Shown here in pieces: positions 17,089-46,980 of a stretch of 64,000 nucleotides of DNA. The notes under the pieces are model-generated. The model saw only the letters and a list, made by a program, of their open reading frames with translations, was not told where the DNA came from and did no database searches. Origin of the DNA: Bacillota bacterium (GTDB taxonomy: Bacteria > Bacillota > Clostridia > Oscillospirales > Oscillospiraceae); the NCBI GenBank assembly GCA_028719885.1, contig JAQYLT010000012.1:26702-90701 (forward strand), read 5' to 3'. Made by a program: the position numbers and the translations under genes. Position 1 is the stretch's first letter. Every line of letters starts with the position of its first letter.

Positions 17089-17154
17089 GCACACGACTGG
17101 CTGATATTAATTAACTTAACGCCCCTTTCCCTCATGAACGATTCTTCCTCTTAC

Positions 17155-17703: not shown

Positions 17704-17723
17704 CGTTTCCTCCTTTTTCTTAT

Positions 17724-18065: not shown

Positions 18066-18078
18066 TCCATCACCTCTC

Positions 18079-21277: not shown

Positions 21278-21638
21278 AGCTTTCCGCCTCCCCCTCCAGA
21301 ATCACGGTGATGCCCTCCGCCTCCGGCACCCGGTTCAGCTCCTGCTCCAGTTTTTGCAGCTTCATCTCCCGCTCCCGGGCATCCAAAGAGCCATCCCGGG
21401 AGAGAATGTCCTGCAAATCCTTTAATACGCCCGTGAGCTGCTTTAACCCCGCCCGATCCACAATTCCCTTGCGCTTGGCCTTGATCAGCTCCCAGGTTTC
21501 CTCTCCATCCTCGGTTTTTCGCTTCTCCCGGAGGAGCACCGTCCCCTTGTCCAGCTCCTCCACTGCCTGCTCCAGCCGGTCCAGCAGCCGCTGCGCCGCC
21601 AGCTGTACCCGGTCCAGGCCCGTTTTTGCCTCCTCCAC
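21267..21638 (-). CDS. putative small terminase/packaging accessory protein (assignment by position only)
   Basis: 123-aa charged coiled-coil protein overlapping the terL start by 11 nt. Confidence 0.4.
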   Translation of the reverse strand: MEEAKTGLDRVQLAAQRLLDRLEQAVEELDKGTVLLREKRKTEDGEETWELIKAKRKGIVDRAGLKQLTGVLKDLQDILSRDGSLDAREREMKLQKLEQELNRVPEAEGITVILEGEAESYAG

Positions 21639-21656
21639 CGTTTTCCCTCCTTTCCT

Positions 21657-21896
21657 CTAATCGATTTCCACCATTCTGTCTTTGACGCAGTCCGGGCACA
21701 GGGGGCTGCCGTCCTCCAAGGGGAAATACCGCTCCCCGGCGATGTGCCTGCCGCAGTCGACGCACTTTGGACGGCCCAGCAGCCAGCGGTCCGACCTGGC
21801 GGCAATCCGCTCCGCCTGCAGCCAGGGCTCGTCAACCACGGCTCCGTCCCTCCCCCCGGCCGGAGGAATCCCCCCGCCCGGCATATCCTTTTTCAT
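21657..21896 (-). CDS. small zinc-ribbon protein, first gene of the late operon
   Basis: 79 aa with CVDCG...CPDC. Confidence 0.5.
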   Translation of the reverse strand: MKKDMPGGGIPPAGGRDGAVVDEPWLQAERIAARSDRWLLGRPKCVDCGRHIAGERYFPLEDGSPLCPDCVKDRMVEID

Positions 21897-22258
21897 TTTG
21901 CTTCATTTCAGCTCCTTTCTGTCCGTTTTATTGGACACGATTCGTGGTATACTTTTTGTGAAAATTCTCATATTACAGTTGAAATTTCCATACTCCTGTG
22001 GTAAAATCCTTTTAAGACGGATGACTCCGGTGGCAATTGGAAAACATCCAGTCTTAAAATGGAAGATGCAGTTCACTTAAATTCACTGTAAGTGCATTAT
22101 AATGCTATAAAGTTTATTTGTCAAGGGACAATAGCATATAATTTTGAACTTACGGAATATTTGGTAAACTGTCATAAAACCACCATGGAAAACCCGGTGA
22201 AATTTCCCTGTTCACGCAGCAGTTTTCACAAAGGGTTTCCGGTCAGGGAGTGTCAACT

Positions 22259-22930
22259 ATGTTTTATGATCGTTTTGTTGCCTTGTGTGCCCAGCGGGGA
22301 GAAACCCCCTCCCGGGCTGCTTTGAATGCGGGCATCAGTAAAGCCATTGTGTCCAAATGGAAGCAGAACCCTGCCGCCTTCCCCTCCGGGCCGGTGGCGG
22401 AGAAGCTGGCAAACTATTTTGGAATCACCATCCCGGAGCTCATTGACGAGAGCCTGGATGTTACCCAGTGCCTGCCCGGCTCCGTCCCCGTGTCGGTAAA
22501 CCCCAATAGTCCTGCCGCTCAAGGCAGGACTCTGGCCCAGTCGGAGGAAGAGGAGCCAGAGGAAAAGCCCGAGGAAAATCCGGAAACCTTCTATGATCGG
22601 CTGGCCCGCATCTCCCGGAGCTATGGCATGAGCCCCTCCCGGGCGGCCCTGGCTGCCGGGGTGAGCAAATCCGCCGTGTCCAAATGGAAGCGGGAGCCGG
22701 ACGCCGTCCCCTCGGGCACGGTGCTGTCCAAGCTGGCCGCCTATTTCGGCATCTCCGCTTCGGAGCTGCTGGGGGAGAGCAAACCCGCCGCCCCGGAAGT
22801 TTCCGAGGAGGACATCAAATTCGCCCTGTTCGGGGGCAGCGAGGACATCACCCAGGAAATGTATGACGAAGTGCGCTCTTTTGCCGCATTTGTAAAGGAA
22901 AGGGAGGCAAATAAGCGCGGAAAGGAGTGA
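22259..22930 (+). CDS. ImmR/XRE-type repressor with two tandem HTH domains
   Basis: The segment FYDRF..SRAALNAGISKAIVSKWK...KLANYFGITIPELI is repeated as FYDRL..SRAALAAGVSKSAVSKWK...KLAAYFGISASELL. An acidic linker joins the two copies. Confidence 0.8.
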   Translation: MFYDRFVALCAQRGETPSRAALNAGISKAIVSKWKQNPAAFPSGPVAEKLANYFGITIPELIDESLDVTQCLPGSVPVSVNPNSPAAQGRTLAQSEEEEPEEKPEENPETFYDRLARISRSYGMSPSRAALAAGVSKSAVSKWKREPDAVPSGTVLSKLAAYFGISASELLGESKPAAPEVSEEDIKFALFGGSEDITQEMYDEVRSFAAFVKEREANKRGKE

Positions 22931-23364
22931 AAATGATTCTTCTACCGGAGCTTTATGCCACAGCCTCCCAGCAGAATATCCCGATTTATTCCTATCCCAT
23001 GGCCCAGTGCGGCTCCATGTCCGTCCAGCTGCAGGACGGCAGCTGCGCCATTGGCATGGATGACCGGGTGGCCGACGGCGGCGCTCAGGAGCGGGTGCAC
23101 CTGGGCCACGAGCTGGGCCACTGCCTCACCGGCAGCTTCTATAACATCTACGCCGCCGCGGACCTGCGGCAGCGGCATGAAAACCGGGCGGACAAATGGG
23201 CCATCCGGCGGCTGATTCCCGTGTCCGCCCTGGATGATGCCATCGCCGCGGGCCACACCGAGCTTTGGGACTTGGCGGAGTTTTTCGGTGTGACGGAATC
23301 CTTTTTAAAGAAGGCCATCTGCCTCTATGTCCATGGCAATACTGCCAGTGAGCTCTATTTTTAA
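22927..23364 (+). CDS. ImmA/IrrE-family zinc metallopeptidase (antirepressor protease)
   Basis: 145 aa with HELGH. Overlaps the repressor stop by 4 nt. Confidence 0.8.
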   Translation: MKMILLPELYATASQQNIPIYSYPMAQCGSMSVQLQDGSCAIGMDDRVADGGAQERVHLGHELGHCLTGSFYNIYAAADLRQRHENRADKWAIRRLIPVSALDDAIAAGHTELWDLAEFFGVTESFLKKAICLYVHGNTASELYF

Positions 23365-23494: not shown

Positions 23495-23568
23495 GCGGGT
23501 GTAGTTCAATGGTAGAACACCAGCCTTCCAAGCTGGATACGCGGGTCCGATTCCCGTCACCCGCTCCA
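23495..23568 (+). tRNA. tRNA-Gly (anticodon UCC), CCA encoded
   Basis: Acceptor stem GCGGGTG/CACCCGC, anticodon loop CTTCCAA, T-arm GGTCCGATTCC. Confidence 0.9.
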
Positions 23569-23576
23569 TAGACTAT

Positions 23577-23653
23577 GCGCCAGTAGCTCAGCCGGATAGA
23601 GCAACTGCCTTCTAAGCAGTAGGTCGGGGGTTCGAGTCCCTCCTGGCGTGCCA
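23577..23653 (+). tRNA. tRNA-Arg (anticodon UCU), CCA encoded
   Basis: Acceptor stem GCGCCAG/CTGGCGT, anticodon loop CTTCTAA, T-loop GGTTCGAGTCC. Confidence 0.9.
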
Positions 23654-23672
23654 TTCAGCAGCAATTTCATAT

Positions 23673-23750
23673 GGTGGATATGGCCTAGTTGGCTAAGGCG
23701 TCAGATTGTGGCTCTGAAGATCGTGGGTTCGAGTCCCATTATCCACCCCA
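23673..23750 (+). tRNA. tRNA-His (anticodon GUG) with G-1, CCA encoded
   Basis: 8-bp acceptor stem GGTGGATA/TATCCACC, anticodon stem-loop TCAGA TTGTGGC TCTGA, T-loop GGTTCGAGTCC. Confidence 0.9.
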
Positions 23751-28326: not shown

Positions 28327-28340
28327 AGCATATAAATCGG

Positions 28341-28411
28341 GTAGGAGGCTGGTCATTAGTTGCCCAGCCGACCTCCCACAGAACCGTGCGTACCGGTCTG
28401 GTACACGGCTC
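28341..28411 (-). ncRNA. group II intron domain V/VI-like fragment (orphan 3' end)
   Basis: The minus strand reads GAGCCGTGT ACC AGACC GGT AC GCACGGTTC (AGC triad, 2-nt AC bulge). A second hairpin follows and ends in ...CCTCCTAC. No domain I-IV or RT ORF is adjacent. Confidence 0.35.
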
Positions 28412-28626
28412 CTCCCCTGTTTATGCCGCTACAGACTTGCGGTAGTAAGGATAGAAAAACTGGAAACCAGCCTTCTCAAGCCGTTGGTTTGAGAGGGCTG
28501 TTTGGTGCGCCCGCTGGGCGCACTATGAAAAAATGCGGAAATACATCCAGTATTCCCGCATTTTTCATGCTTTCGCTGGGGTCAAAACACTGGTCGAATC
28601 TCCTTGCACCATTATGCGGTGTTGCC

Positions 28627-29805: not shown

Positions 29806-29899
29806 ATAAAATCCTCCAATCTTTCTTTCGATCCTGCCAGGGGGCTGGTGGTGTTTCCGCTTTCGGCGGCGCCGACTCGATCAGATATGCTTCCCCGGC

Positions 29900-30439
29900 T
29901 CACTGGGCTTTGTGCAGCAGATAGGGACAGAAATCCCGGGGCAGGAACATCAGGCACTGGTGCGCCAGCTTATCCGGCGGGGTTGCCATGTCCTCGAAAA
30001 GCCAGTATCGGAAGCTGTTGAAAACGCCGCCGATGTGGTAATTGCACGCCAGGGAGTGTACGGCGGCTTTGTTGTTTCCGTGCACCTGGGCAATGCGGGT
30101 GTTCAGCTCCTCCAGCAGGAGAAAGGACAGCCCCCGCTGATCCAGCAGGATCAATTCCTTCTTATACCGAAGGAAGCTCTCAAACATGCCGGTAAAATAG
30201 GCTTTGGCGGAGATATTCGCACTGACGGAGGACAGGTATTCATCCAGACGAAGCTGATAAAAGCAGCGGACCACATCCTGCTTTGTTCCGAAGTGACGGT
30301 AATAGGTGGATCGGTTCACACCGGCCTTTTCCGCAATTTCCTTCACGGAGATCTGGTCGATGACCTTGTCCTGCAAAAGCAGCAGCAGACTCTGTACGAT
30401 GCAGTCGGACAGGCCGGATGGGGCAGTCGTCTTATACAT
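29900..30439 (-). CDS. TetR/AcrR-family transcriptional regulator
   Basis: 179 aa with an N-terminal HTH (ISVKEIAEKAGVNRSTYYRHF). Confidence 0.85.
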   Translation of the reverse strand: MYKTTAPSGLSDCIVQSLLLLLQDKVIDQISVKEIAEKAGVNRSTYYRHFGTKQDVVRCFYQLRLDEYLSSVSANISAKAYFTGMFESFLRYKKELILLDQRGLSFLLLEELNTRIAQVHGNNKAAVHSLACNYHIGGVFNSFRYWLFEDMATPPDKLAHQCLMFLPRDFCPYLLHKAQ

Positions 30440-30691
30440 GGTGGTGACACCTCCATAACATGGATTCCGGAGCGTGATTCAGGGGTTTCTTTTATAAAAA
30501 TTATACGATAAAAGCAGGGAAAATACAAGCGTGGAGGAAAAACGTTCCGGTCCTCCATTGTTTAAAAAGTTCAGCAAGATACACAAAATGCGATTGCGAC
30601 AAATCCTGCCTTTTGTTGCTTGTATTTCGCCCTTTTTTTATTTATCATTAGTATTGTAATATTATACGAAATATTTGGAAAGGAGCCCTGA

Positions 30692-31360
30692 ATGGATACT
30701 TATCGTGTCATTGAGGTGAAGCAAAGCATTTTTGCTGACAACGATCGGGACGCAGACCGTCTGCGGCAGCAGATGAAGAAGGAAAAAACCTTCCTTGTAA
30801 ATCTCATGTCCTCCCCCGGTTCCGGCAAGACCACCACGCTGACGAAGCTCATTGCCGCGCTGAAGGATGACCTGCGGATCGGCGTCATGGAGGCGGATAT
30901 TGATTCGGATGTGGATGCCGACACCATCTCCCGGACCGGGGTCAAGGTGATACAGCTCCACACCGGCGGTATGTGCCATCTGGATGCGGATATGACCCGC
31001 CAGGGCATCAAGCAGCTGCAGACGCGGGAGCTGGATCTGGTGATCCTGGAAAACGTGGGCAATCTGGTCTGCCCCGCGGAATTCGATACCGGCGCGGCCA
31101 TGAATATGATGATCCTCTCTGTGCCCGAGGGCCACGACAAGCCCCTGAAATACCCCCTGGTCTTCCAGGTCTGCGATGCTATGGTCATCAACAAGATCGA
31201 TGTGCTGCCCTACTTTGACTTTGACATGGAAAAGGTCACGGAATTCGCCCGCCGCCGCAATCCCAAGATCCAAATTTTCCCCATCAGCGCAAAAACCGGA
31301 GATGGTGTGGATGCTCTGGCCGCCTACCTGAAAGAAAGAATCACGCAGTGGAAGCAATAA
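30692..31360 (+). CDS. hypB: nickel-insertion GTPase HypB
   Basis: 222 aa. P-loop SSPGSGKTT, CH metal motif GGMCHLDA, and ENVGNLVCPA. Confidence 0.88.
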   Translation: MDTYRVIEVKQSIFADNDRDADRLRQQMKKEKTFLVNLMSSPGSGKTTTLTKLIAALKDDLRIGVMEADIDSDVDADTISRTGVKVIQLHTGGMCHLDADMTRQGIKQLQTRELDLVILENVGNLVCPAEFDTGAAMNMMILSVPEGHDKPLKYPLVFQVCDAMVINKIDVLPYFDFDMEKVTEFARRRNPKIQIFPISAKTGDGVDALAAYLKERITQWKQ

Positions 31361-31373
31361 AGGAGGAAAAGAC

Positions 31374-34247
31374 ATGATTGACGAAAAGCTGAAAAACCGT
31401 GCCTTGAACCCCGTGTGCAAGGGCGATCCCGCGCCCCGGGAGAAGATCCTGAAGCTGGGCAAAAAGGTCACCGACGTGGTGCTGCACAAGCTCAAGGGCA
31501 TTACCACTGACGACCCCGAATACTGGGGTCTGGCGGCCATCCTCACCGACGAGATGGCGGACATCGCCCTGTCTATGGATGTCCGTGTGCCCTACACCCT
31601 CCCCCAGCTGATGAAGATGAACAACATCACCGAAGAGGGGAAGGCTCACTTTGAAGCGGTGCTGGAGGAAATGAGCTATATCGGCCTTCTGGAATTCGAC
31701 TATGGCTACCACTATGACCACAACGGCCGCACCGCGCCGCCTTCCGAAAAGCGGTACATTCTGACCATGTTCGTCCCCGGCTCCGCGGAGATGTTCAACA
31801 TGGAAGAGGCGGACAACCTGAGCGAAACCCCCTCCTACAATGAGCGCGGCGAGATCTCCAACTACAACAAGCGCCTGCATGACGAGCATCCCGAGGTGGG
31901 CTACTTCTTCGAGCGCATGACCTACATCCCTCTGGAGGGCGTGACCCATCTGCTGCCCCCCGGCGGCGGCGGCGTGGGTATGCACGTCATTCCCGTGGAG
32001 AAGGCCATCGAGATGGAGAATACCTCCGTGGATCTGGAGCATTTGTCCTACTGGCTGAAGAAGTACGAAGGCCACATCGGTGTGGGCCAGTGCTCCTGCC
32101 GGGCCAGCCGGGGTGTCATGGGGGAGGGCTGCGCGGACGACCCCTCCTCCTGGTGCATCGGCGTGGGCGACTTTGCCGACTACTGCCGGGAGACCGGGAA
32201 GGGCCACGACATCACCTACGAAGAAGCCATGCACATCCTGCAGGTGGCAGAGGACAACGGCTTTGTCCACCAGGTCACCAACATCGACGGCGAGAACAAG
32301 ATCTTCGGCATCTGCAACTGCAATGTGAAGATCTGCAACGCCCTGCGTACCTCCCAGCTGTTCAATACCCCCAACCTGTCCCGCAGCGCCTATACCGCCG
32401 AGGTGGATAAGGCCAAGTGCGTGGCCTGCGGCAAATGCGTGGAATACTGCCCCGCCGGGGCGGTGAAGCTGGGTCAGAAGCTCTGCGACAAGCAGGGCAA
32501 GACCGTGGAGTACCCCAAGCATGAGCTGCCCCATGGCCTGAAATGGGGCCCGGAGCATTGGGACCCCGACTACCGGGACAACAACAGAAAGAACTGCTAC
32601 GACAAGGGCACCGCGCCCTGCAAGACCGCCTGCCCCGCCCACATTGCAGTGCAGGGCTACCTGAAGCTGGCCGCCCAGGGCCGGTACACCGACGCCCTGG
32701 CGCTGATCAAGAAGGACAACCCCTTCCCCGCTGTCTGCGGCCGCATCTGCAACAAGCGCTGCGAGGACGCCTGCACCCGGGGCACCATCGATGAGGCGGT
32801 TTCCATCGATGCCGTCAAAAAGTTCATCGCCCAGAAGGATCTTGATGCCAAAACCCGCTACATTCCCCCGGTGGTGATCGCCTCCAACCGGGTCAAGACC
32901 TGGGCCCAGAAGATCGCCATCATCGGCGGCGGCCCTGCCGGTCTTTCCGCTGCCTACTATCTGGCCACCATCGGCTACAAGCCCACGGTGTTTGAAAAGA
33001 GCGCCAAGCCCGGCGGCATGATGATGTACGGCATCCCCTCTTTCAAGCTGGAAAAGGATGTCATCGACGCGGAGATCGATGTCCTGCGGGAGCTGGGCGT
33101 GGAAATCAAGTGCGGTGTGGAAGTGGGCCGGGATGTGACCATCCAGCAGCTCCGGGACCAGGGCTACGAGGCCTTCTACATTGCCATCGGCTGCCAGGGC
33201 GGCCGCCGTCCCGGCGTCCCCGGTGACCAGGCAGCGGGCACCTCCATTGCCGTGGACTTCCTGCACCATGCCCTGGAGGATGAGAGCCAGAGGATGGAAG
33301 GCAATGTGGTGGTAGTCGGCGGCGGCAACGTGGCCGTGGACTGCGTCAAGACCGCCAAGCGCTTCGGTGCCGCTAAGGTTTCCATGGTCTGTCTGGAGGA
33401 CAGAGCCTCCATGCCTGCTTCCAAAAACGAGATCGCCGAAGCCCTGGAAGAGAACATTGCCATCTGCAACAGCTGGGGTCCCAAGGAGGTCAAGGTGGAT
33501 GCAGCGGGCCATGTCACCGCCATCGTCTTCAAGAAGTGCCTGCGCACCATGGACGAGAACGGGAAATTCAACCCCGCCTATGATGAGAACGATACCATGA
33601 CCCTGGAGGCGGACCACATCGTCTTTGCCATCGGCCAGGCCATCGAGTGGGGCAGCCTGCTGGAGGGAACCAAGGTGGAATTCTGGCGGGGCAACTACCC
33701 CGTGGCAGATCCCCTCACCTACCAGACCGCTGAACCCGACATCTTCGTGGGCGGCGACGTGTACCATGGCCCCAAGTTCGTCATCGATGCCATCGAAGAG
33801 GGCAAATGCGCGGCTGAATCCCTGCACCGCTATGTCCACAAGGGCGCAGATATGAAGATCGGCCGGAACCGCCGGGACTTCATCATGCTGGACAAGGACG
33901 ACATCTATGTGGATTCCTATGACCACGCAGGCCGCCAGGAGGCGGGCATGGACGAGACCATCGATCCCCACTCCTTCCGGGATGCCCACAAGACCCTTAC
34001 CGAGGAGCAGGTGAAGATCGAGACGGCCCGCTGCCTGGGCTGCGGCGCAAGCTGGGTTGACCCCAACAAGTGCATCGGCTGCGGCGTCTGCACCACCAAG
34101 TGCATGTTTGACGCCATCCATCTGAAGCGGGATCACCCCGAGTGCACCGACATGCGCCGGGCGGAGGACAAGATCAAGGTGGTTGCCTCCATGGCCGTCA
34201 AGCGGCTGGGGGAGGACATCTCCGACCTTTTTAAGAAGAAGGACTGA
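31374..34247 (+). CDS. 957-aa multidomain Fe-S flavoprotein: Cys-rich N-terminal domain + 2x[4Fe-4S] ferredoxin + GltD-like NAD(P)H/FAD oxidoreductase + C-terminal ferredoxin
   Basis: N-terminal Cys motifs QCSCR...C...C and CNCNVKIC. Ferredoxin motif CVACGKCVEYCP. GltD-type APCKTACP...GRICNKRCEDAC. Dinucleotide fold IIGGGPAGLSAAYYL. C-terminal CLGCG...CIGCGVCTTKC. Confidence 0.75.
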   Translation: MIDEKLKNRALNPVCKGDPAPREKILKLGKKVTDVVLHKLKGITTDDPEYWGLAAILTDEMADIALSMDVRVPYTLPQLMKMNNITEEGKAHFEAVLEEMSYIGLLEFDYGYHYDHNGRTAPPSEKRYILTMFVPGSAEMFNMEEADNLSETPSYNERGEISNYNKRLHDEHPEVGYFFERMTYIPLEGVTHLLPPGGGGVGMHVIPVEKAIEMENTSVDLEHLSYWLKKYEGHIGVGQCSCRASRGVMGEGCADDPSSWCIGVGDFADYCRETGKGHDITYEEAMHILQVAEDNGFVHQVTNIDGENKIFGICNCNVKICNALRTSQLFNTPNLSRSAYTAEVDKAKCVACGKCVEYCPAGAVKLGQKLCDKQGKTVEYPKHELPHGLKWGPEHWDPDYRDNNRKNCYDKGTAPCKTACPAHIAVQGYLKLAAQGRYTDALALIKKDNPFPAVCGRICNKRCEDACTRGTIDEAVSIDAVKKFIAQKDLDAKTRYIPPVVIASNRVKTWAQKIAIIGGGPAGLSAAYYLATIGYKPTVFEKSAKPGGMMMYGIPSFKLEKDVIDAEIDVLRELGVEIKCGVEVGRDVTIQQLRDQGYEAFYIAIGCQGGRRPGVPGDQAAGTSIAVDFLHHALEDESQRMEGNVVVVGGGNVAVDCVKTAKRFGAAKVSMVCLEDRASMPASKNEIAEALEENIAICNSWGPKEVKVDAAGHVTAIVFKKCLRTMDENGKFNPAYDENDTMTLEADHIVFAIGQAIEWGSLLEGTKVEFWRGNYPVADPLTYQTAEPDIFVGGDVYHGPKFVIDAIEEGKCAAESLHRYVHKGADMKIGRNRRDFIMLDKDDIYVDSYDHAGRQEAGMDETIDPHSFRDAHKTLTEEQVKIETARCLGCGASWVDPNKCIGCGVCTTKCMFDAIHLKRDHPECTDMRRAEDKIKVVASMAVKRLGEDISDLFKKKD

Positions 34248-34250
34248 CCC

Positions 34251-34595
34251 ATGCATGAGCTTGGCGTTGTATTTCATATTGCCGACAGCGTGGTAAAGGT
34301 GGCAGAAGAAAACCGGGCACGGAAGGTGCATACGGTCACGCTGGAGATCGGTGAGGTTTCCACCATCATCCCGGACTACCTGATCGATGTGTGGAACTGG
34401 AACTGCAAGCGGGTCCCACTGCTGGAGGGCTGCACGCTGAACGTGGAGCAGATCCATGCCGTTACCCACTGTGACAGCTGCGGCAGGGATTACGACACGG
34501 TGCCCCAGGGTAAGATCTGCCCCCACTGCGGCAGCGGCCAAACCTGGCTGCTCACAGGAAACGAAGTGAACATCAAGGACATCACCATTGAATGA
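34251..34595 (+). CDS. hypA: nickel metallochaperone HypA
   Basis: 114 aa. N-terminal MHE nickel site and a zinc site CDSCG...CPHCG. Starts 3 nt after the upstream stop. Confidence 0.88.
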   Translation: MHELGVVFHIADSVVKVAEENRARKVHTVTLEIGEVSTIIPDYLIDVWNWNCKRVPLLEGCTLNVEQIHAVTHCDSCGRDYDTVPQGKICPHCGSGQTWLLTGNEVNIKDITIE

Positions 34596-34601
34596 TACGC
34601 T

Positions 34602-34628
34602 GAAAGGCCCCATTATTGGGGCCTTTCC
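34602..34628 (+). terminator. terminator hairpin after hypA
   Basis: AAAGGCCCC ATTATT GGGGCCTTT. Confidence 0.6.
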
Positions 34629-34695
34629 ATAGTTTGCCCACCAGCGTCTTTGCGCTGGTGGGCAAAGTCTGCGTGAAATCGGGATCTCCTCTCGT

Positions 34696-35100
34696 TCAAT
34701 CCATCTTTTTCAGCGATTCTTTCAGGGCTATGATCTTTTCTTTGATTCGGGCGATGACTTCTCTGAATTCGGAGTCGGATTTCCCGGTGGGGTCCTCCAG
34801 GCCCCAGTTGTCGTCGAAGGCTCTGCCAATGAAGGGGCAGCCTACGTTGCAGCCCATGGAGATGGCGATGTCGGGCGCCGGGATTTGGGAAATCAGCTTG
34901 GAATACTGGGTCTTTTCCATATCGATGCCGTAAAGCGCCTTCATCAGCCGCACCGCGTCCGGGTTGATGCGGGGCTTTGTTTCCGTTCCGGCGGAATAGC
35001 TTTCAAACACATCGGAAGCAAGGTGCTTTCCCAGCGCCTCGGCGATCTGGCTACGGCAGGAATTGTGAACACAAATGAAGGCTACCTTCTTCTTATCCAT
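34696..35100 (-). CDS. arsC: arsenate reductase, LMW-PTP (thioredoxin-coupled) family
   Basis: 134 aa counted from the ATG at 35100. Shows CVHNSCRSQ (the CX5R P-loop) and a downstream Cys pair GCNVGCP. Confidence 0.8.
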   Translation of the reverse strand: MDKKKVAFICVHNSCRSQIAEALGKHLASDVFESYSAGTETKPRINPDAVRLMKALYGIDMEKTQYSKLISQIPAPDIAISMGCNVGCPFIGRAFDDNWGLEDPTGKSDSEFREVIARIKEKIIALKESLKKMD

Positions 35101-35647
35101 GGAAGGGGCACCTCTTTCCGATACACTGGGCATTTTGGGAGGAATAAGTACATAGGGGCTCCTCCTGCTCCAATGTGACGGGATAGTTCTCGTTCACATA
35201 GGCGACCGCCTGCCGGAATGCCAGCAGGGCATCCCGCTTGCAGCATCTGGGGCCGTTGATTTTCCCCAGCTCCGCCACTGCCCCGGAGGTGAATTTCATG
35301 TGGTCGCCCCAGGTCCCGTCCCCGGACAGGGGACCGGTGCCGTCGATGATGGCCAGCGCCGCCCCCATGGAGGTGACGGCTCCGCAAACGCCCCACAGGC
35401 CGCACATGGCTCCTGGCATCCGAAGCCCCTCCGCCTTCAGCCGTTCCAGCGCGGCCTCCAGGTCGAGCTCGCCTCCCGCATTGCGGTAGGCCACCAGCAG
35501 GCTGGCCCCATCCAGAATGTGATGCTCCGGGCCGTGAATGGACATATACTCCTTTTGCGCAATGTTATGGAAGATCCGAACCGGGTTTGTTCCCGTCTCC
35601 TGCCGGATGTCCTGGATGATCCGTTCCGCTTTTTCCGCGACTGTCAT
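35093..35647 (-). CDS. Cys-rich protein (DUF5714-like / C_GCAxxG_C_C-like), function unknown
   Basis: 184 aa counted from the ATG at 35647, which follows GGAGGAAC. Motifs GAMCGLWGVCGAV, GPRCCKRD and C-terminal CIGKRCPFHG. Overlaps the arsC start by 8 nt. Confidence 0.6.
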   Translation of the reverse strand: MTVAEKAERIIQDIRQETGTNPVRIFHNIAQKEYMSIHGPEHHILDGASLLVAYRNAGGELDLEAALERLKAEGLRMPGAMCGLWGVCGAVTSMGAALAIIDGTGPLSGDGTWGDHMKFTSGAVAELGKINGPRCCKRDALLAFRQAVAYVNENYPVTLEQEEPLCTYSSQNAQCIGKRCPFHG

Positions 35648-35852
35648 TTTTGTTCCTCCGTTTTGAAATAAGTATGAAGGATCCCTGTCGATTCCCTCAG
35701 CACCTGGCGGTTCAGAGCGCGGCAATGCCATTTTTCCTCGGATCCGCTTCCGGACCTTTTTCCACGGGGCGCTTCCTGTGGCGGGGTGGAGTGGGGGGAA
35801 ACATCAAACCGCGATTTGCCACCAGGGACTGTGCCGGGAAGCGCAATGTTCT

Positions 35853-36358: not shown

Positions 36359-37300
36359 GTGATAGAATACTTTCAGAAAAAGAGAGAAGGTGGCACTACG
36401 GTTCTGAACTATGACAGCGGGACGATTTCCGCGAAGCTGGAGCAATCCGAAAAAGAACTGGTCAGCGGTGTCCGGTTCTCCATGGAAGAAGGAAGGAGTC
36501 TTGCGCTGATCGGGGAGACCGGTTCCGGCAAGACGATGATTGCCCGCTCCATCATGGGGCTGCTGCCGGGAAATGTCCAAATGAAGGATGGGAAGATTCT
36601 GTTCTGCGGTGACGAATTGACAGGCCGCTCTGCCCGGAAGCTCCTTGGGGATCGGATTGTCTACATCCCCCAGAACGGTCTGGAATCGCTGAACCCTTCC
36701 CGAAAAATCCGGCACCACCTGTATGACAATCTGAAAAAGATCGGCATTCCCCGCGCAGAGCTGGAACAGGAAGCCCTCTCCAAGCTGGCCTTGGTTGGGT
36801 TCCCGGAGCCGGAGAAGCTTCTGGACAAGTATCCCTTTCAGCTCTCCGGCGGCATGGCCCAGCGGGTGACCATTGCCATCTCCGCCTGTTCCCGGGGGGC
36901 TCTGATGATTGCGGACGAGCCTACCAACGGTCTGGACGACGGGGCTAAGCTGAAATTCATGGAGCTGCTGCAAACGGTTTTCCCCCATGCGGCGAAGCTG
37001 ATGATCACCCACGATATTACTCTGGCGGAATTATGCGACGAAACCCTGGTGCTCTGCGGCGGCAGGATGATGGAAAAGGGGCCGTCCTCCCAGATTCTGC
37101 ACGCACCCAGAAATCAATACACCTGTGCGCTCATTCTGTCTCTGATCAAAAACGGGATGCGGGAAACGCCGGTTTTGCACTCCGAAACCGGGGAATGCCC
37201 CTTTTTCCGCCGATGCCAGGCTGCTAGACCCAGCTGCCGGGTAAACGTAGAGCATCATCAGTCTGGGCAGAGAGAATGGTGGTGCAATCATTTGATATGA
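36359..37300 (+). CDS. ABC transporter ATP-binding protein (Opp/Dpp/Nik D-type)
   Basis: Walker A GETGSGKT, signature LSGGMAQR, and a C-terminal oligopeptide-type extension. Starts with GTG. Confidence 0.85.
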   Translation: MIEYFQKKREGGTTVLNYDSGTISAKLEQSEKELVSGVRFSMEEGRSLALIGETGSGKTMIARSIMGLLPGNVQMKDGKILFCGDELTGRSARKLLGDRIVYIPQNGLESLNPSRKIRHHLYDNLKKIGIPRAELEQEALSKLALVGFPEPEKLLDKYPFQLSGGMAQRVTIAISACSRGALMIADEPTNGLDDGAKLKFMELLQTVFPHAAKLMITHDITLAELCDETLVLCGGRMMEKGPSSQILHAPRNQYTCALILSLIKNGMRETPVLHSETGECPFFRRCQAARPSCRVNVEHHQSGQREWWCNHLI

Positions 37301-37971
37301 TTCGGATAGAGCACTTGCAAAAACGTTTTGGCGGCAGGCTGATTTTTGATGATCTGAATATGGAGATCGCCCCGGGGCAGATCGTGGGCCTCTACGGTGC
37401 CAGCGGCATCGGCAAATCCACCCTGGCAAAGCTTCTCTGCGGCGTGCTGAAGCCGGATTCCGGCAGCGTGTATCTGGACGACAGGCTCCTTTATTCTGCG
37501 GACACGCCCTATGACCGGAAGCGGGGCATCCAGATTCAGATGGTCTATCAGCAGCCCTATTCCTCCCTGGACGGCAGCCAGAAGCTGGGAAACGGCTTCC
37601 GGGAGCTGATTCGATACCACGCTCTGGCCCCCCGGCGGGAGGAAACCCGGCGAATCAACGACACACTGGCACAGGTGGGACTGGAGCCGGGCATTTTGGA
37701 GCATCTTCCTCACCAGATTTCCGGCGGAGAAGCCCAGCGGGTTGCCATTGCCCGATGCCTGCTGTTCCAGCCCAGACTGCTGATTCTGGATGAAGCCACC
37801 TCCATGCTGGATGTGTCCACCCAGGCCAACGTCATCGCCCTGGTGAAGCGGGTGATGCTTGACCGGGGCGGCAGCGTCCTGCTCATCAGCCATGACCGGG
37901 AGCTGGTGAATTACCTGTGTCATCAAATATATTTATTTGATCAATTTGTTGCAAAGGAGAAAGAGCGATGA
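37297..37971 (+). CDS. ABC transporter ATP-binding protein (Opp/Dpp/Nik F/E-type)
   Basis: Walker A GASGIGKST, signature ISGGEAQR. ATGA overlap with the upstream gene. Confidence 0.85.
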   Translation: MIRIEHLQKRFGGRLIFDDLNMEIAPGQIVGLYGASGIGKSTLAKLLCGVLKPDSGSVYLDDRLLYSADTPYDRKRGIQIQMVYQQPYSSLDGSQKLGNGFRELIRYHALAPRREETRRINDTLAQVGLEPGILEHLPHQISGGEAQRVAIARCLLFQPRLLILDEATSMLDVSTQANVIALVKRVMLDRGGSVLLISHDRELVNYLCHQIYLFDQFVAKEKER

Positions 37972-39578
37972 AAAAACTGTTTTCCGTCCTGATGGTTCTG
38001 GCACTGTCGATTTCCCTGCTGGCAGTCACAGCAGGCGCCGCTCCCATCGAAAAGGTCACCATCGGCACCACCTCTGTCATTGAGGTTGCCGACAGCAGCG
38101 AGTACGCCTACGAAATGCTGTCCAGCGGTGTCAGCGCCATGCCCCTGGTCTGCCAGGACACCACTGGCGGCTATCATCCGTTGCTTGCCACCTACGAAAC
38201 CCAGGATGCCCAGACCTGGGTCTACACCATTGTGGAAGGAATGCACTGGTGTGACGGCGAAAAGGTGACCGCCGAGGACATTCTGTTCACTTTGGAATAC
38301 GATGATGCTCACGGCAGCGCCAACCTGATTGACCAGACCGATTCCGAGGGCAAGACCACCGCTGCCAAATATTCCGGTTACGAGCTGTCCGAGGACGGCA
38401 TGAGCATCTCCCTGACCCTGGCCAAGGCAAACGTCCGGGAGCTGAGCAACATGACCTCCTTCCGGGTGGTGCCCAAGCACATTCTGGAGGGCAAGGACGA
38501 ACCAACCAGTGATGATCTGCGCATCGGCTGCGGCCCCTATATGTTCGACTCCTTCAACAAGGATGCAGGCACCATTTCCTTTGTGGTGAATCCCCATTAT
38601 CCCACCGCCCCCAACGTGGATACCATTGTATACCAGCTGTTCAGCAACGAGGACACCATGTACATGGCTCTGCAAATGGGCGACATCGACTTCACCTGGA
38701 ATTACTCCATGGGCGTTCCCGCCACCTATCAGGACATTCTGGCAGCCTCCGAGAATGTGACCCTGGAAAGCGTTTCCGCCGCCAACGAGCCCGCAGTTCT
38801 GGCCTTCAACAACGCCAAGGGCCCCTTCGCGGACGAGAATCTGCGTAAAGCTGTTTCCTATGCCCTGGACTATGAAGCCTTCAAGACCTACTTTGGCAGT
38901 GCCTTTGCCGAAATCCCCAACACCGGCTTTGTCCCCACCTCCACCATTGGCTTCAAGGAAACCGATAAGCTGACCACCGATACCGAAAAGGCTGCCGAAT
39001 ACATGGCTGCTGCCGGTTACACCGAGAAGAACGCTGACGGCTTCTATGTGGATGCCCAAGGGAATGTGGCTTCCTTCGCGCTGACGGTCAATGCGGGAAA
39101 GACCGCCCATGTGGGCTACGCCGAGCTGGTGAAGACCCAGCTGGAGCAGTTCGGAATTCAGGTTACGCTGGATGCTCTGGACGGTGACTCCTACAACGCG
39201 AAAACCAGCAACAAGTTCTCCGAGAACAACATCACCATGGAGGCCGCTATCTATGGCTACACCGTGGCCGGTATGGGTATGATGAATGGCCTGGGCTCTA
39301 TTTATGTAAGCGGCAATCATCCCGTTCAGGGCGGCTGCCAGGTCTTTGATGAGGAATTCCAGGGGATTCTTTCTGAAATGAGCGCCGCCGCCAATGTGGA
39401 GGAATACACCGCCGCCGCCGGAAAGCTCCAGGACTTCTATGCCCAGCACACGCCCCTGCTGGCTCTGTACTGGGACAACATGGTTCATGCCCACGCTGCC
39501 CGCTTTGAAAACATCACCATTGACTACACCTTTGGCATCAACAATGTAAACAACTGGTTTACCATTTCCGAAAAGTAA
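37968..39578 (+). CDS. ABC substrate-binding protein, family 5 (peptide/nickel/opine type), secreted
   Basis: 536 aa with a signal peptide (MKKLFSVLMVLALSISLLAVTAGA) and an SBP_bac_5-like core. Confidence 0.8.
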   Translation: MKKLFSVLMVLALSISLLAVTAGAAPIEKVTIGTTSVIEVADSSEYAYEMLSSGVSAMPLVCQDTTGGYHPLLATYETQDAQTWVYTIVEGMHWCDGEKVTAEDILFTLEYDDAHGSANLIDQTDSEGKTTAAKYSGYELSEDGMSISLTLAKANVRELSNMTSFRVVPKHILEGKDEPTSDDLRIGCGPYMFDSFNKDAGTISFVVNPHYPTAPNVDTIVYQLFSNEDTMYMALQMGDIDFTWNYSMGVPATYQDILAASENVTLESVSAANEPAVLAFNNAKGPFADENLRKAVSYALDYEAFKTYFGSAFAEIPNTGFVPTSTIGFKETDKLTTDTEKAAEYMAAAGYTEKNADGFYVDAQGNVASFALTVNAGKTAHVGYAELVKTQLEQFGIQVTLDALDGDSYNAKTSNKFSENNITMEAAIYGYTVAGMGMMNGLGSIYVSGNHPVQGGCQVFDEEFQGILSEMSAAANVEEYTAAAGKLQDFYAQHTPLLALYWDNMVHAHAARFENITIDYTFGINNVNNWFTISEK

Positions 39579-39649
39579 GAAATCTATCCCATAGCGAGGC
39601 CGGCCTTCGGGCTGGTCTCGCTATGGCAGTCTTTTAAGGAGGGACATCC

Positions 39650-40624
39650 TTGAAGCAATACTCAAAAAATATCCTTGTGGCTTTGGTGTGCTTCCTGATT
39701 GTGATTGTGCTGAATTTCCTGCTGCCCAGGCTGTTGCCGGGAAATCCCATCGCCTATCTCACCGGCTTTTCCGAGGAGGATATGACCGTCGCCCAGCAGG
39801 AATTTTACGAAAACGCCCTGCATCTGAAGGAAAGCGGCTTCGTCCAGTTCGGGTTCTATCTGCGCTCCCTGTTGGACGGCACCCTGGGCTATTCCTACAA
39901 AAAGAACGCCGTGGTTTCCGCTCTGATTCTGGAAAGGCTGGGCATAACCCTGCAAATCACACTGCCCAGCGTACTGCTCTCCACCGTCCTGGGCCTTGTG
40001 TGGGGGCTCCACAATGGCTATCAAAAGGACAGCCTTTCGGATCGGCTGTCCACCTCCGCCATGATTGTGGTGAACACCATCCCAACCTTTCTGATCGGAC
40101 TGGTGCTGATTATTCTGTTTTGCTTCCGGGTACGCTGGCTGCCCTATACGGGCCTCAGCTCCAGCCATCCTGGAACGGGCCCTGCGTGGCTCCTTGACCG
40201 GCTGAAGCATCTCTTTCTGCCGGTGCTGACCCTGACAATTGCCACAACCCCCTCCCGGTATCTGCTGATGCGCAACACCGCCAGCCGGGTTGCGGATGAA
40301 AAATACATCCTCTACGCCAAGGAACGGGGACTGTCTGACCATACCATCAAATACCATTACCTTCTGAAAAACATCGCCCAGCCCTTCATCACCATGGTGG
40401 GCATGAGCGTCAGTACCTGCGTGGGGGGTTCTTTGATTATCGAGAATATCTTCTCCATCAACGGCATGGGCAAGCTGCTCACCGATGCGGTGTACACCCT
40501 GGACTATCCGCTGATGCAGGGCATCCTGTTTGTGACCACGCTGATTATGGTCATTTCCATCGTGGTGACGGATTTCATCTGCATTGCCATCGACCCGAAA
40601 GTGAGGCTGCGCCATGAGAAATAG
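39650..40624 (+). CDS. ABC permease (DppB/NikB-type)
   Basis: 324 aa, multi-TM, with an EAA-like loop. Starts with TTG. Confidence 0.8.
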   Translation: MKQYSKNILVALVCFLIVIVLNFLLPRLLPGNPIAYLTGFSEEDMTVAQQEFYENALHLKESGFVQFGFYLRSLLDGTLGYSYKKNAVVSALILERLGITLQITLPSVLLSTVLGLVWGLHNGYQKDSLSDRLSTSAMIVVNTIPTFLIGLVLIILFCFRVRWLPYTGLSSSHPGTGPAWLLDRLKHLFLPVLTLTIATTPSRYLLMRNTASRVADEKYILYAKERGLSDHTIKYHYLLKNIAQPFITMVGMSVSTCVGGSLIIENIFSINGMGKLLTDAVYTLDYPLMQGILFVTTLIMVISIVVTDFICIAIDPKVRLRHEK

Positions 40625-41426
40625 ACGGCTGCTTCCTCTGATTCTGGGCTGCCTGCTCCTGTCCCTTTTCCTGCTGATGGCGCTTTTCCCCCAGCTGTTC
40701 ACCCCCTATGGGGTGAAGCAGATGTTCGCCCCCTGGCAGACATGCACCGGGGAGCATCTATTGGGAACCAACGCATTGGGCTATGACATCTTCACTGAGC
40801 TGGTCTACGGCACCCGGGAAACGCTGTTCATCGGACTGATGAGCAGCCTGCTGACCATGCTCCTGGGCACGGCCATCGGCACGGCGGCTGCCTGCCGGGG
40901 CTTTGTTGGCCATTTCTTCAACGGCCTGATTAACATTTTCGTCCTGCTGCCCCGGCTGATTACGCTGATTGTGCTGGCCTCCTTTGTGGGAAGCTCCCAG
41001 TGGAATCTAATTTGGCTGATCTGCGCCTTCAGTTGGGTGGGCATCGCCAGAAATGTCCGCTCCAAGGTGATGCATCTGAATGAGCAAACCTTCATTGAGA
41101 ATTGCATCATCCAGGGCTATGACCGGGTGCATATCGCAGTGCACCACATCCTCCCCAATCTCTATGATGTGCTGATCTCCCGGTTCCTGCTGGGGGTGAA
41201 CAGCTGCATCATGATGGAATCCACCCTGAGCTTTTTGGGCTTTGGTGACCTGTACCACCCCACCTGGGGAACGATGATTAACTTTGCTTACAAACGGGGG
41301 GCCTTTATCCGGCAGGCCTATTCCTATCTGCTGACGCCGGGCATCTGCATCATGCTGCTGTCGCTGTCATTCTTCTTCCTCAGCCTCTATTTCGAGGGCA
41401 GGAGGGACACCATTTCGGAGGGATAA
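40614..41426 (+). CDS. ABC permease (DppC/NikC-type)
   Basis: 270 aa, multi-TM, overlapping the upstream gene. Confidence 0.8.
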   Translation: MRNRRLLPLILGCLLLSLFLLMALFPQLFTPYGVKQMFAPWQTCTGEHLLGTNALGYDIFTELVYGTRETLFIGLMSSLLTMLLGTAIGTAAACRGFVGHFFNGLINIFVLLPRLITLIVLASFVGSSQWNLIWLICAFSWVGIARNVRSKVMHLNEQTFIENCIIQGYDRVHIAVHHILPNLYDVLISRFLLGVNSCIMMESTLSFLGFGDLYHPTWGTMINFAYKRGAFIRQAYSYLLTPGICIMLLSLSFFFLSLYFEGRRDTISEG

Positions 41427-46656: not shown

Positions 46657-46679
46657 TATATCGGAACGAAAAAATGTAC

Positions 46680-46843
46680 CATTCAGGTGCCCGGGGTGGA
46701 ATCAACACGGACGGGTGAAAAGGGAAGCCGGTGGGAATCCGGCACGATGCTGTCACTGTGTATGGGAGCTGTTTTCGATTGCTCACTGGGAAACCGGGAA
46801 GAGGAAAATGGCGATGATCAAAGTCAGGAGACCTGCCTGAATG
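46680..46843 (+). promoter_or_regulatory. cobalamin (B12) riboswitch aptamer
   Basis: P1 helix CATTCAGG/CCTGAATG. Core AAAAGGGAAGCCGGTGGGAATCCGGCAC...CACTGT, GCTCACTGGGAAACCGGGAAG, and B12 box AGTCAGGAGACCTGCC. Confidence 0.85.
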
Positions 46844-46980
46844 TGGAATTTCGGATTCGCAGTCTACGGATCGTCTTTCTCACATGTTTTCTTTCATTGG
46901 GCAGAAAAAAGCTGTGCGTCGATTGGCGCATGGCAGTTTTGTGTATGCTTTTTCCGATGAAAGGGAAGCTGTTTTGATTG

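What the first reader, a model, noticed from the sequence alone, without database searches (positions are those of the whole stretch)
30692..34595. hypB - 957-aa Fe-S/GltD-like flavoprotein - hypA: nickel chaperones bracketing a non-hydrogenase client
Seen: the three genes are tightly coupled (13-nt and 3-nt gaps, with one terminator after hypA).
- HypB has the GTPase P-loop and the CH metal motif.
- HypA has its MHE nickel site and Zn ribbon.
- The middle protein has an uncharacterised Cys-rich N-terminal ~330 aa (QCSCR..C..C, CNCNVKIC).
- It also has ferredoxin clusters and a GltD-type NAD(P)H:FAD module.
- No hydrogenase large/small subunit, hypCDEF, CODH or urease gene is present in the 64 kb.

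Established: HypA and HypB deliver Ni to [NiFe]-hydrogenase, and to urease in Helicobacter.

Inference: either the 957-aa protein is a new nickel-dependent or nickel-sensing redox enzyme, or it is an electron-transfer partner of a Ni enzyme encoded elsewhere. The sandwich arrangement is not the canonical hyp layout and deserves attention.
Basis: partly seen in the sequence, partly recalled or inferred. Interest (0 to 1): 0.65.

Follow-up and report, generated by a model that had tools for sequence, protein, structure and literature searches.

The report
Nickel-chaperone-linked IsrA-family reductase operon
The three genes are real and stay together across hundreds of gut anaerobe species, so the large iron-sulfur flavoprotein is very likely what the nickel chaperones HypA and HypB serve; this family and this link were already described in 2023 (putative isoprene reductase IsrA), and nickel content is still unproven.

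Summary
hypB (30692-31360), a 957-aa Fe-S/FAD protein X (31374-34247) and hypA (34251-34595) lie 13 nt and 3 nt apart, and two strong hairpins follow hypA.

The arrangement is not chance. Of 64 species-level loci with enough flanking sequence, 61 have hypA and 51 also have hypB within 1.5 kb of an X homologue, in several gene orders and phyla. No other neighbour recurs in more than 16 loci. A related Faecousia genome shares only the block tetR-hypB-X-hypA (29897-34631, 90% nt identity), so this is a self-contained module.

X is a full-length homologue (46% identity) of IsrA, the putative isoprene reductase of Acetobacterium wieringae (Kronen et al. 2023, PMC10134865). That paper already reported the HypA/HypB/TetR/DUF5692 neighbourhood and proposed a nickel site at two CxC motifs. 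X keeps those motifs (C240/C242, C314/C316) plus C261, C321 and H299. It differs from the IsrA clade at H204 and C253, so it is a separate gut subfamily with an unknown substrate.

The N-terminal catalytic domain has no solved structural relative. Best reading: an NAD(P)H-driven reductase whose Cys-rich site is matured by dedicated HypAB. This is a new member of a known, biochemically untested kind.

The parts
29900..30439 (-). tetR-family regulator, divergently transcribed from hypB. It is part of the conserved 4.7-kb module.
   Evidence: PF00440 TetR_N, E = 1.6e-8. It is 92% identical in L003, and the block shared with L003 starts at 29897. TetR was also a recurrent neighbour in Kronen et al. 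(co-occurrence 0.21) and in the distant subfamily locus L084.
30440..30691 (.). Divergent intergenic/promoter region with a 12-nt direct repeat (AAAATTATACGA / AATATTATACGA), a possible operator.
   Evidence: Promoter-like hits only reach consensus level. The operator role is inference.
30692..31360 (+). hypB: a G-domain-only HypB GTPase with no N-terminal CxxCGC or His-rich stretch.
   Evidence: TIGR00073 256 bits, above the 121 cutoff. P-loop, MCH94-96 and C127 are conserved in 64/64 linked HypBs. It is 64% identical to the HypB of the isr operon.
31374..34247 (+). X: a 957-aa IsrA-family Fe-S flavoprotein reductase.
   Evidence: 46% identity to IsrA (P0317) over X residues 48-921. Domain hits. 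The full-length AF2 model has pLDDT 86.4 and pTM 0.89.
31431..31703 (+). X residues ~20-110: winged-helix-like N-terminal module.
   Evidence: High pLDDT. Foldseek gives only weak matches to ArsR/MarR-type winged-helix proteins (E >= 0.24).
31881..32378 (+). X residues ~170-335: Cys-rich putative catalytic/metal module. It carries C240-S-C242, C253, C261, H299, C314-N-C316 and C321, plus the PPGGxGxGMHVIPVE loop containing H204.
   Evidence: Invariant residues. C240/C242 and C314/C316 align to IsrA C180/C182 and C254/C256. No Pfam hit. No PDB relative by fold or by profile.
32400..32489 (+). X residues 343-372: ferredoxin-type [4Fe-4S] motif (C349, C352, C355, C359, C371).
   Evidence: PF00037/PF12837. 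The Cys residues are invariant and align to IsrA C289-C299.
32589..32843 (+). X residues 406-490: DPD-domain-II type module that binds two [4Fe-4S] clusters.
   Evidence: PF14691, E = 5.6e-20. PDB sequence matches to NfnB, DPD and GltD.
32910..33803 (+). X residues 513-810: FAD/NAD(P)H-binding module of GltD/NfnB type.
   Evidence: PF07992, E = 1.2e-27. PDB matches 4ylf_B, 5jca_L and 2vdc_G.
34023..34148 (+). X residues 884-925: C-terminal ferredoxin-type Cys motifs (C887, C890, C900, C903, C906, C910, C924).
   Evidence: Fer4-family hits with a second stretch; the best stretch of PF12797 is 894-910. Cys positions.
34251..34595 (+). hypA: nickel metallochaperone with N-terminal MHE and a CxxC...CxxC zinc site.
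   Evidence: PF01155 101 bits. MHE is conserved in 64/64 linked HypAs. TIGR00100 is below its cutoff.
34602..34666 (.). Two tandem GC-rich hairpins between the convergent hypA and arsC-like genes. They act as a likely bidirectional terminator and mark the end of the module.
   Evidence: -54.4 kcal/mol, z = -9.3. The block shared with L003 ends at 34631. There is no T-run, so the pattern scan did not call it.

Best explanation
tetR-hypB-X-hypA is a self-contained module. It encodes a member of the IsrA-like ('clade 9') family of NAD(P)H-dependent Fe-S flavoprotein reductases together with its own maturation factors.

Proposed mechanism:
- HypB (a GTPase) binds Ni at its Cys-His...Cys site and passes it to the MHE N-terminus of HypA (established for these chaperones in [NiFe]-hydrogenase maturation).
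- HypA delivers Ni to the Cys-rich N-terminal module of X (inferred). That site is built from two Cys-x-Cys motifs plus C261, C321 and H299.
- The mature site is a Ni-containing, or Ni plus Fe-S, centre (inferred).
- Electrons flow from NAD(P)H to FAD, then through the chain of [4Fe-4S] clusters to this site. The domain content is shown; the path is inferred.
- There a hydrophobic unsaturated substrate is reduced, by analogy with isoprene reduction to methylbutene by IsrA.
- The divergent TetR probably senses the substrate or an analogue (inferred).

X belongs to a gut subfamily that differs from the IsrA clade at H204 and C253. Its substrate is probably not isoprene and remains unknown.
For: - Family membership: X is 46% identical to IsrA (P0317) over the full length. 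P0317 was verified as IsrA by its isrA-hypA-hypB-fdx-hypA operon on GCA_902175055.1.
- Motifs: X C240/C242 and C314/C316 align to IsrA C180/C182 and C254/C256. The 74-residue spacing holds in every family representative checked.
- Linkage: of 64 loci with flanks, 61 have hypA and 51 have both hypA and hypB within 1.5 kb, in six or more gene orders (B-X-A, B-B-X-A, X-A-B, B-A-X and others). Contig labels span Oscillospirales, Lachnospirales, Christensenellales, Anaeroplasma/Acholeplasmatales, Bacteroidales, Spirochaetes and Coriobacteriia.
- No competing neighbour: no other gene recurs in more than 16 loci. The top ones are DUF5692 and GntR, with no hydrogenase, CODH or urease.
- Distant subfamily: a subfamily with 38% N-domain identity still shows TetR-X'-HypA.
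- Chaperone motifs: the Ni-binding MHE of HypA and CH...C of HypB are conserved in 64/64.
- Co-divergence: pairwise X and HypA identities correlate at r = 0.80.
- Module behaviour: only 29897-34631 is shared with the closest genome.
- Structure: the full-length AF2 model is compact (pTM 0.89). Loops 193-218 and 300-345 are disordered in the isolated N-domain model and become ordered in the full-length context.
- Literature: IsrA, HypA and HypB are induced by isoprene, and that genome lacks a [NiFe]-hydrogenase and hypCDEF (PMC10134865). hypA and hypB rise about 370-fold and 585-fold in an isoprene-reducing Pelotomaculum culture (bioRxiv 10.64898/2026.02.25.708027).
Against: - No metal analysis exists for any family member. 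The Cys-rich site could be an ordinary or unusual Fe-S cluster.
- hypB is missing next to X in about 20% of loci, and 3 of 64 loci have neither chaperone.
- The HypB-X identity correlation is weak (r = 0.38).
- HypA scores below the curated TIGR00100 cutoff.
- The rest of this genome could not be inspected. Faecousia genomes frequently encode Ni-CODH/ACS, so another Ni client may exist.
- The substrate assignment rests on analogy with a 46%-identical protein. According to Kronen et al., Acetobacterium strains whose homologues are 47-49% identical to IsrA do not reduce isoprene.
Confidence: 0.6

Rival explanations
1. HypA and HypB mature a nickel enzyme encoded elsewhere (CODH/ACS or a [NiFe]-hydrogenase). 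X is only an electron-transfer partner, or a co-located gene, and contains no nickel.
For: Faecousia, the genus of the closest hit (L003), frequently carries cooS-cooC-acsB (282 of 446 genomes; PMC11338639). In some Clostridium genomes hypAB lie upstream of cooS (same paper). The rest of the window's genome could not be searched.
Against: None of the 80 related loci shows hydrogenase, CODH or urease genes as a recurrent neighbour, whereas X-hypA is nearly universal. CODH/ACS clusters carry their own CooC/AcsF. A. wieringae ISORED-2 has the same chaperones beside IsrA but no [NiFe]-hydrogenase or hypCDEF. The module transfers as tetR-hypB-X-hypA. The linkage persists in lineages labelled Anaeroplasma and Acholeplasmatales.
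Confidence: 0.12
2. The Cys-rich N-terminal site is a purely iron-sulfur centre (for example an unusual or double-cubane-type cluster) or a zinc site. The HypA/HypB paralogues here deliver a metal other than nickel, or act as assembly or gate-keeping factors.
For: CxC motifs also bind Fe-S clusters (examples cited by Kronen et al.). HypA is divergent: it is below the TIGR00100 cutoff and only 28-32% identical to the isr HypAs. HypB belongs to the broad CobW/UreG/HypB GTPase class, whose members handle several metals (Pfam PF02492; own knowledge).
Against: The specific Ni ligands are strictly kept in all 64 linked pairs: MHE in HypA, and Cys-His plus Cys in HypB. HypB passes the HypB equivalog cutoff. 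General Fe-S assembly does not use Hyp proteins (own knowledge).
Confidence: 0.2
3. X is a nickel- or redox-sensing regulator that uses its N-terminal winged-helix-like module, rather than an enzyme.
For: Residues ~20-110 give weak Foldseek matches to ArsR/MarR-type metal and redox sensors such as CadC, CzrA and BigR.
Against: All matches have E >= 0.24 and TM-score normalised to the query <= 0.21. X carries a complete NAD(P)H/FAD/[4Fe-4S] electron-input module typical of enzymes. A dedicated TetR regulator sits beside the operon. The homologue IsrA is tied to a catalytic activity by proteomics.
Confidence: 0.03

Closest known systems
IsrA, putative isoprene reductase of Acetobacterium wieringae ISORED-2 (VUZ27132.1; Kronen et al. 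2023, PMC10134865), and its 'clade 9' homologues
   Same: Full-length homology (46% identity). The same domain order: an unannotated N-domain with two CxC motifs 74 residues apart, then Fer4, Fer4_20, FAD/NAD and a C-terminal Fer4. The same neighbourhood of hypA, hypB, TetR and, in relatives, DUF5692.
   Different: X has about 60 extra N-terminal residues and a private insertion at ~146-168. The gut clade has His204 where the IsrA clade has Arg, and Cys253 where it has Thr/Gly. The window lacks the second hypA and the N-domain-like ferredoxin of the isr operon. No link to isoprene is known, and Kronen et al. report that Acetobacterium strains with 47-49%-identical homologues do not reduce isoprene.
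NfnB / GltD / DPD-type NADPH:FAD:2[4Fe-4S] electron-input modules (e.g. PDB 4ylf_B, 5jca_L, 2vdc_G, 1gt8_A)
   Same: Residues ~400-825 align with E-values of 1e-55 to 1e-62. Pfam Fer4_20 and Pyr_redox_2 are present.
   Different: All GltD/NfnB/AegA/YgfK NCBIfam models score below their cutoffs. X adds a 340-residue N-terminal domain and flanking ferredoxin motifs, and it has no partner large subunit nearby.
HypA/HypB nickel delivery to [NiFe]-hydrogenase, and to urease in Helicobacter pylori
   Same: The chaperone families and their Ni-binding motifs are conserved.
   Different: No hydrogenase subunits, hypCDEF, endopeptidase or urease genes were found in the window or as recurrent neighbours in related loci. 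HypB is the short G-domain-only type. Some lineages carry two tandem hypB copies.
Ni-thiolate / Ni-Fe-S sites of acetyl-CoA synthase (A-cluster, Cys-Gly-Cys) and CODH (C-cluster)
   Same: This is an analogy only. Cys-x-Cys motifs sit next to an Fe-S relay, as Kronen et al. discuss and from own knowledge.
   Different: No sequence or fold similarity was detected. ACS and CODH are matured by AcsF and CooC, not by HypAB.

Membership tests
IsrA-like 'clade 9' oxidoreductases (Kronen et al. 2023) | Aligns to the whole ~900-aa IsrA sequence, not only to the ~500-aa GltD-like core | tested here: met
   BLASTP of X against P0317 (IsrA): 46% identity over 901 columns, X residues 48-921. P0317 was identified by its operon and assembly.
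IsrA-like 'clade 9' oxidoreductases (Kronen et al. 2023) | Two CxC motifs (IsrA C180/C182 and C254/C256) within a cluster of about six Cys, followed 35 residues later by a Fer4 motif | tested here: met
   X C240/C242 and C314/C316 align to those residues, and C349 aligns to IsrA C289. C261 and C321 are also universal across 202 sequences from three clades plus X.
IsrA-like 'clade 9' oxidoreductases (Kronen et al. 2023) | Gene neighbourhood enriched in hypA, hypB and TetR | tested here: met
   All three are present in the window. In related loci, 61 of 64 have hypA and 51 of 64 have hypB.
isr operon proper (isrA-hypA-hypB-fdx-hypA) | Five-gene arrangement with a second hypA and an N-domain-like 4Fe-4S ferredoxin | tested here: not met
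   The window has a single hypA and no such ferredoxin. The isr locus L089 has both.
isr operon proper (isrA-hypA-hypB-fdx-hypA) | Isoprene-induced expression and isoprene reduction | not testable with these tools
   This needs culture and enzyme work. The active-site-region differences at H204 and C253 argue against assuming it.
HypB (TIGR00073) | Score above the curated cutoff; GTPase P-loop; Cys-His...Cys metal site | tested here: met
   256 bits against a cutoff of 121. Motifs shown.
HypA (PF01155 / TIGR00100) | Family score above cutoff; N-terminal MHE; two CxxC motifs | tested here: inconclusive
   Pfam 101 bits, well above 28.9, but TIGR00100 68.7 is below 88.1. The motifs are present. 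It is a divergent HypA.
Glutamate synthase small subunit / NfnB proper | Score above the curated cutoff of the equivalog or subfamily models | tested here: not met
   TIGR01318 273.7 against 483; TIGR01317 226 against 448; PRK12771 444 against 516. X shares the module but is not a member of these enzymes.
[NiFe]-hydrogenase maturation locus | Hydrogenase large and small subunits and hypCDEF in the neighbourhood | tested here: not met
   None were found among the 50 scanned ORFs of the 64-kb window or among recurrent neighbours in about 80 loci. The whole genome was not available.

The most novel reading that the evidence does not exclude
The IsrA-like family would be a new class of nickel enzyme. 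Its Ni (or Ni-Fe-S) centre would be held by two Cys-x-Cys motifs in a fold with no solved relative, and it would be matured by HypA/HypB alone. The gut clade found here (His204/Cys253 signature, at least several hundred species) would reduce an abundant gut or dietary unsaturated compound other than isoprene.
Probability: 0.4. Interest if true: 0.85.

Novelty: new member of a known kind. Interest (0 to 1): 0.5.

Why it matters
If nickel is confirmed, this family would add a new nickel enzyme class and a third client type for HypA/HypB, after [NiFe]-hydrogenase and Helicobacter urease. The candidate chemistry is reduction of unactivated or conjugated C=C bonds.

The family is very common in gut and rumen anaerobes. 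A functional assignment would therefore explain a widespread and currently blind spot of gut microbial redox metabolism.

The compact tetR-hypB-X-hypA module gives a ready-made expression cassette, and its TetR repressor offers a handle for finding the substrate.

Tried and rejected
- Structural relative of the N-domain: Foldseek against the PDB gave only weak winged-helix hits for ~80 residues and nothing at E <= 1e-3. A profile of 52 N-domains against PDB sequences gave nothing meaningful.
- IsrA sequence from the paper: the supplements held no sequences. Cluster look-ups of representatives gave no useful names. IsrA was eventually recovered through a search seeded with a distant representative.
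- Suspected selenocysteine or stop-codon recoding: many homologues are listed at ~564-573 aa. In L002 the cause is a TAG at a codon that is Lys in relatives. In L087/L088 it is a frameshift. These are lesions, not recoding.
- P0023, an apparent 'N-domain plus ferredoxin only' variant next to hypA, is an internal deletion that also has C253V. It is a single case and was not used as evidence.
- Other window neighbours as functional partners: the AKR-Fe-S protein, arsC-like gene and DUF5714 are not conserved next to X elsewhere, and the block shared with L003 excludes them.
- Riboswitch control: there are no Rfam hits near the triad or the nearby Nik/Opp-type transporter.
- Nickel specificity of the ABC transporter at 36359-41426: NikD-type and 'nickel permease' models (NikD, Opp2B) score best for the first ATPase and the first permease, while oligopeptide models (Opp4A, Opp4C) score best for the binding protein and the second permease. 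All are far below their cutoffs, so this is inconclusive.
- Cys-to-cluster distances: model coordinates are not exposed by the tools, so they could not be measured.

Full report
OBSERVATION

The gaps are 13 nt and 3 nt, and each start has a Shine-Dalgarno-like sequence.

HypB passes the curated HypB equivalog (TIGR00073, 256 bits against a cutoff of 121). It shows the P-loop, the Cys-His motif and the second Cys. It is the short, G-domain-only type.

HypA passes Pfam PF01155 (101 bits) but falls below the TIGR00100 cutoff (68.7 against 88.1). It keeps the N-terminal Met-His-Glu and two CxxC pairs. It is a divergent HypA.

X has a ferredoxin motif (343-364), a DPD-domain-II two-cluster module (406-490), a GltD/NfnB-type FAD/NAD(P)H module (513-810) and C-terminal ferredoxin motifs. 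Residues 1-340 hit no Pfam family. PDB sequence matches (NfnB, DPD, GltD and GltD-like modules in larger enzymes) begin only at residue ~400.

After hypA come two very stable hairpins (34602-34627 and 34633-34666; -54.4 kcal/mol, z = -9.3). They lack a T-run, so the pattern scan did not call them.

I scanned 50 of 57 candidate ORFs of the window. No hydrogenase, hypCDEF, CODH/ACS or urease family appeared. The seven unscanned small ORFs lie inside a prophage.

IS THE ARRANGEMENT MORE THAN CHANCE?

It found 560 confirmed relatives and returned the best 80 loci. The closest is a Faecousia sp. MAG at 97% protein identity.

I ran tblastn with the window's HypB, X and HypA against these loci. Among the 64 loci with enough flanking DNA, hypA lies within 1.5 kb of X in 61, hypB in 51, both in 51, and neither in 3.

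The orders vary:
- B-X-A: 37 loci
- X-A: 9 loci
- B-B-X-A: 8 loci
- X-A-B, B-A-X and A-X, plus inverted hypB: the remainder

The contig labels span Oscillospirales, Lachnospirales, Christensenellales, Anaeroplasma/Acholeplasmatales, Bacteroidales, Spirochaetes and Coriobacteriia.

Clustering all other ORFs within 5 kb found no neighbour in more than 16 loci. The most frequent are a DUF5692 membrane protein (16 loci) and a GntR regulator (11 loci). No alternative nickel enzyme recurs.

The Ni-binding motifs are kept in all 64 linked chaperones, counting the window's own. Pairwise identities of X and HypA correlate (r = 0.80); those of X and HypB correlate only weakly (r = 0.38).

A distant subfamily (846 aa, 38% N-domain identity) still shows TetR-X'-HypA, followed by an OYE-type reductase.

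The closest genome shares with the window only the block 29897-34631, at 89.9% nucleotide identity. That block is tetR-hypB-X-hypA up to the first hairpin, and the flanks on both sides are unrelated. The unit is therefore a discrete, relocatable four-gene module.

WHAT IT IS

A literature search led to Kronen et al. 2023 (mSystems, PMC10134865).
- They identified a 901-aa oxidoreductase, IsrA, in an isoprene-reducing Acetobacterium wieringae.
- It is encoded in an isoprene-induced operon with two hypA genes, hypB and a ferredoxin.
- They noted that the first ~270 residues have no known domain.
- They noted that two CxC motifs (C180/C182, C254/C256) lie among six clustered cysteines near a predicted substrate tunnel.
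- That genome has no [NiFe]-hydrogenase or hypCDEF.
- Among 988 homologues, hypA (0.73), hypB (0.56), TetR (0.21) and DUF5692 are the enriched neighbours.
- They proposed that these Hyp proteins insert nickel into IsrA.

I recovered IsrA itself as P0317 (901 aa, assembly GCA_902175055.1) and confirmed its five-gene operon.

X aligns to IsrA over its full length at 46% identity. X C240/C242 and C314/C316 align with IsrA C180/C182 and C254/C256, and the following ferredoxin motif aligns too. The 74-residue CxC spacing holds in all family representatives checked. The window's HypB is 64% identical to the isr HypB; HypA is only 28-32% identical to the two isr HypAs. X is therefore a member of the published 'clade 9' IsrA-like family.

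WHAT IS SPECIFIC TO THIS CLADE

I aligned X with 202 full-length sequences from three clades: 77 gut relatives of X, 120 IsrA-side sequences and 5 from the distant subfamily.
- Universal N-domain residues include C240, C242, R243, R246, C261, E293, H299, C314, N315, C316 and C321.
- The X clade has His204 (99%) where the other two clades have Arg.
- The X clade has Cys253 (99%) where the IsrA clade has Thr or Gly.
- The X clade has its own invariant loop, PPGGxGxGMHVIPVE.

Kronen et al. report that Acetobacterium strains whose homologues are 47-49% identical to IsrA do not reduce isoprene. X should therefore not be called an isoprene reductase.

STRUCTURE

The isolated N-domain model is moderate (pLDDT 70.7). 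Residues 193-218 and 300-345 are poorly defined.

In the full-length model (pLDDT 86.4, pTM 0.89) those segments become ordered. This fits an N-domain that packs onto the Fe-S/flavin body.

Foldseek against the PDB matched only a winged-helix-like piece (~80 residues, E >= 0.24) and found nothing for the Cys-rich module. A profile search of PDB sequences was also empty.

MECHANISM (BEST READING, CONFIDENCE ABOUT 0.6)

- Shown: the domain inventory, the conserved residues, and the conserved, co-diverging, co-transferred linkage with chaperones whose Ni-binding motifs are conserved.
- Established from the literature: the roles of HypB and HypA in nickel delivery, and isoprene-linked induction of IsrA/HypA/HypB.
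- Inferred: HypAB load nickel into the CxC/CxC site; electrons run from NAD(P)H through FAD and the [4Fe-4S] chain to that site; the substrate is a hydrophobic unsaturated compound sensed by the adjacent TetR.

RIVALS

- The chaperones serve another Ni enzyme (about 0.12). Faecousia often has CODH/ACS and this genome could not be searched. This does not explain the conserved linkage.
- The site is Fe-S or Zn only, and the chaperones carry another metal or play another role (about 0.2).
- X is a sensor or regulator (about 0.03).

NOVELTY

This is a new member of a known, biochemically untested kind.

- the strength and breadth of the linkage in gut lineages
- the four-gene module boundaries
- the universal versus clade-specific residues
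- the lack of any solved structural relative for the catalytic domain

Noticed in passing
window 7162-23364: Prophage block on the minus strand: endolysin, tail proteins, internal virion protein, major head protein, portal and terminase large subunit. Repressor-like and ImmA-type metalloprotease genes sit at 22250-23364. The block abuts a tRNA-Gly/Arg/His cluster at 23495-23750.
   Followed up: partly
window 28336-28413 (- strand): An Rfam group II intron catalytic-domain match (47.8 bits against a gathering score of 40) lies in a gene-poor stretch between tatC and the AKR-Fe-S gene. It is probably an intron remnant.
   Followed up: no
window 46668-46854 (+), 53474-53660 (-), 53792-53998 (+): Three cobalamin riboswitches. 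The two at ~53.5-54.0 kb flank divergent operons: FecCD/BtuF-type transport on one side and CbiK cobalt chelatase plus a RACo-type corrinoid activator on the other.
   Followed up: no
window 36359-41426 (+) and 61877-63988 (-): Two Nik/Opp-family ABC transporters. For the first, 1.8 kb from hypA, NikD-type and 'nickel permease' NCBIfam models score best for the first ATPase and first permease, while oligopeptide models score best for the binding protein and second permease. All are far below cutoff, so nickel specificity is open.
   Followed up: partly
window 35093-35731 (-): A DUF5714 protein next to an arsC-like phosphatase, convergent with hypA. It shows weak, below-cutoff similarity to the 'metal-binding double selenoprotein MbdU' model. 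It is not a conserved neighbour of X elsewhere.
   Followed up: partly
L002 9720; L087 ~3680-3770; L088 ~3641-3731: In one lineage (amine-oxidase-like gene, then X, then hypA, with no hypB) X is interrupted. L002 has a TAG at a codon that is Lys in relatives. L087 and L088 have a frameshift, and the same 564-aa product is listed from many independent assemblies. This looks like recurrent inactivation, or a split gene, in a common gut species.
   Followed up: partly
L025-L029, L031-L034, L037-L039 (e.g. L028 6642-7969): Several lineages, including some labelled Christensenella, carry two tandem hypB paralogues upstream of X (each ~50-57% identical to the window's HypB). This suggests a heterodimeric HypB.
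   Followed up: no
window 31809-31877 (X residues ~146-168): The window's X has a private ~23-residue insertion (ADNLSETPSYNERGEISNYNKRL) that is absent from all aligned relatives and is modelled with low confidence.
   Followed up: no
L089 4796-5785 and 9801-10931: The isr locus of A. wieringae holds two stand-alone proteins homologous to the N-domain of X (22-27% identity), each fused to ferredoxin motifs. The Cys-rich domain therefore also exists without the flavin module.
   Followed up: no
L015 4298-6889 (-) and 8001-10763 (+): One rumen Clostridia MAG has two divergent X paralogues side by side (49% and 73% identity to X). Only the more distant one is followed by a hypA.
   Followed up: no
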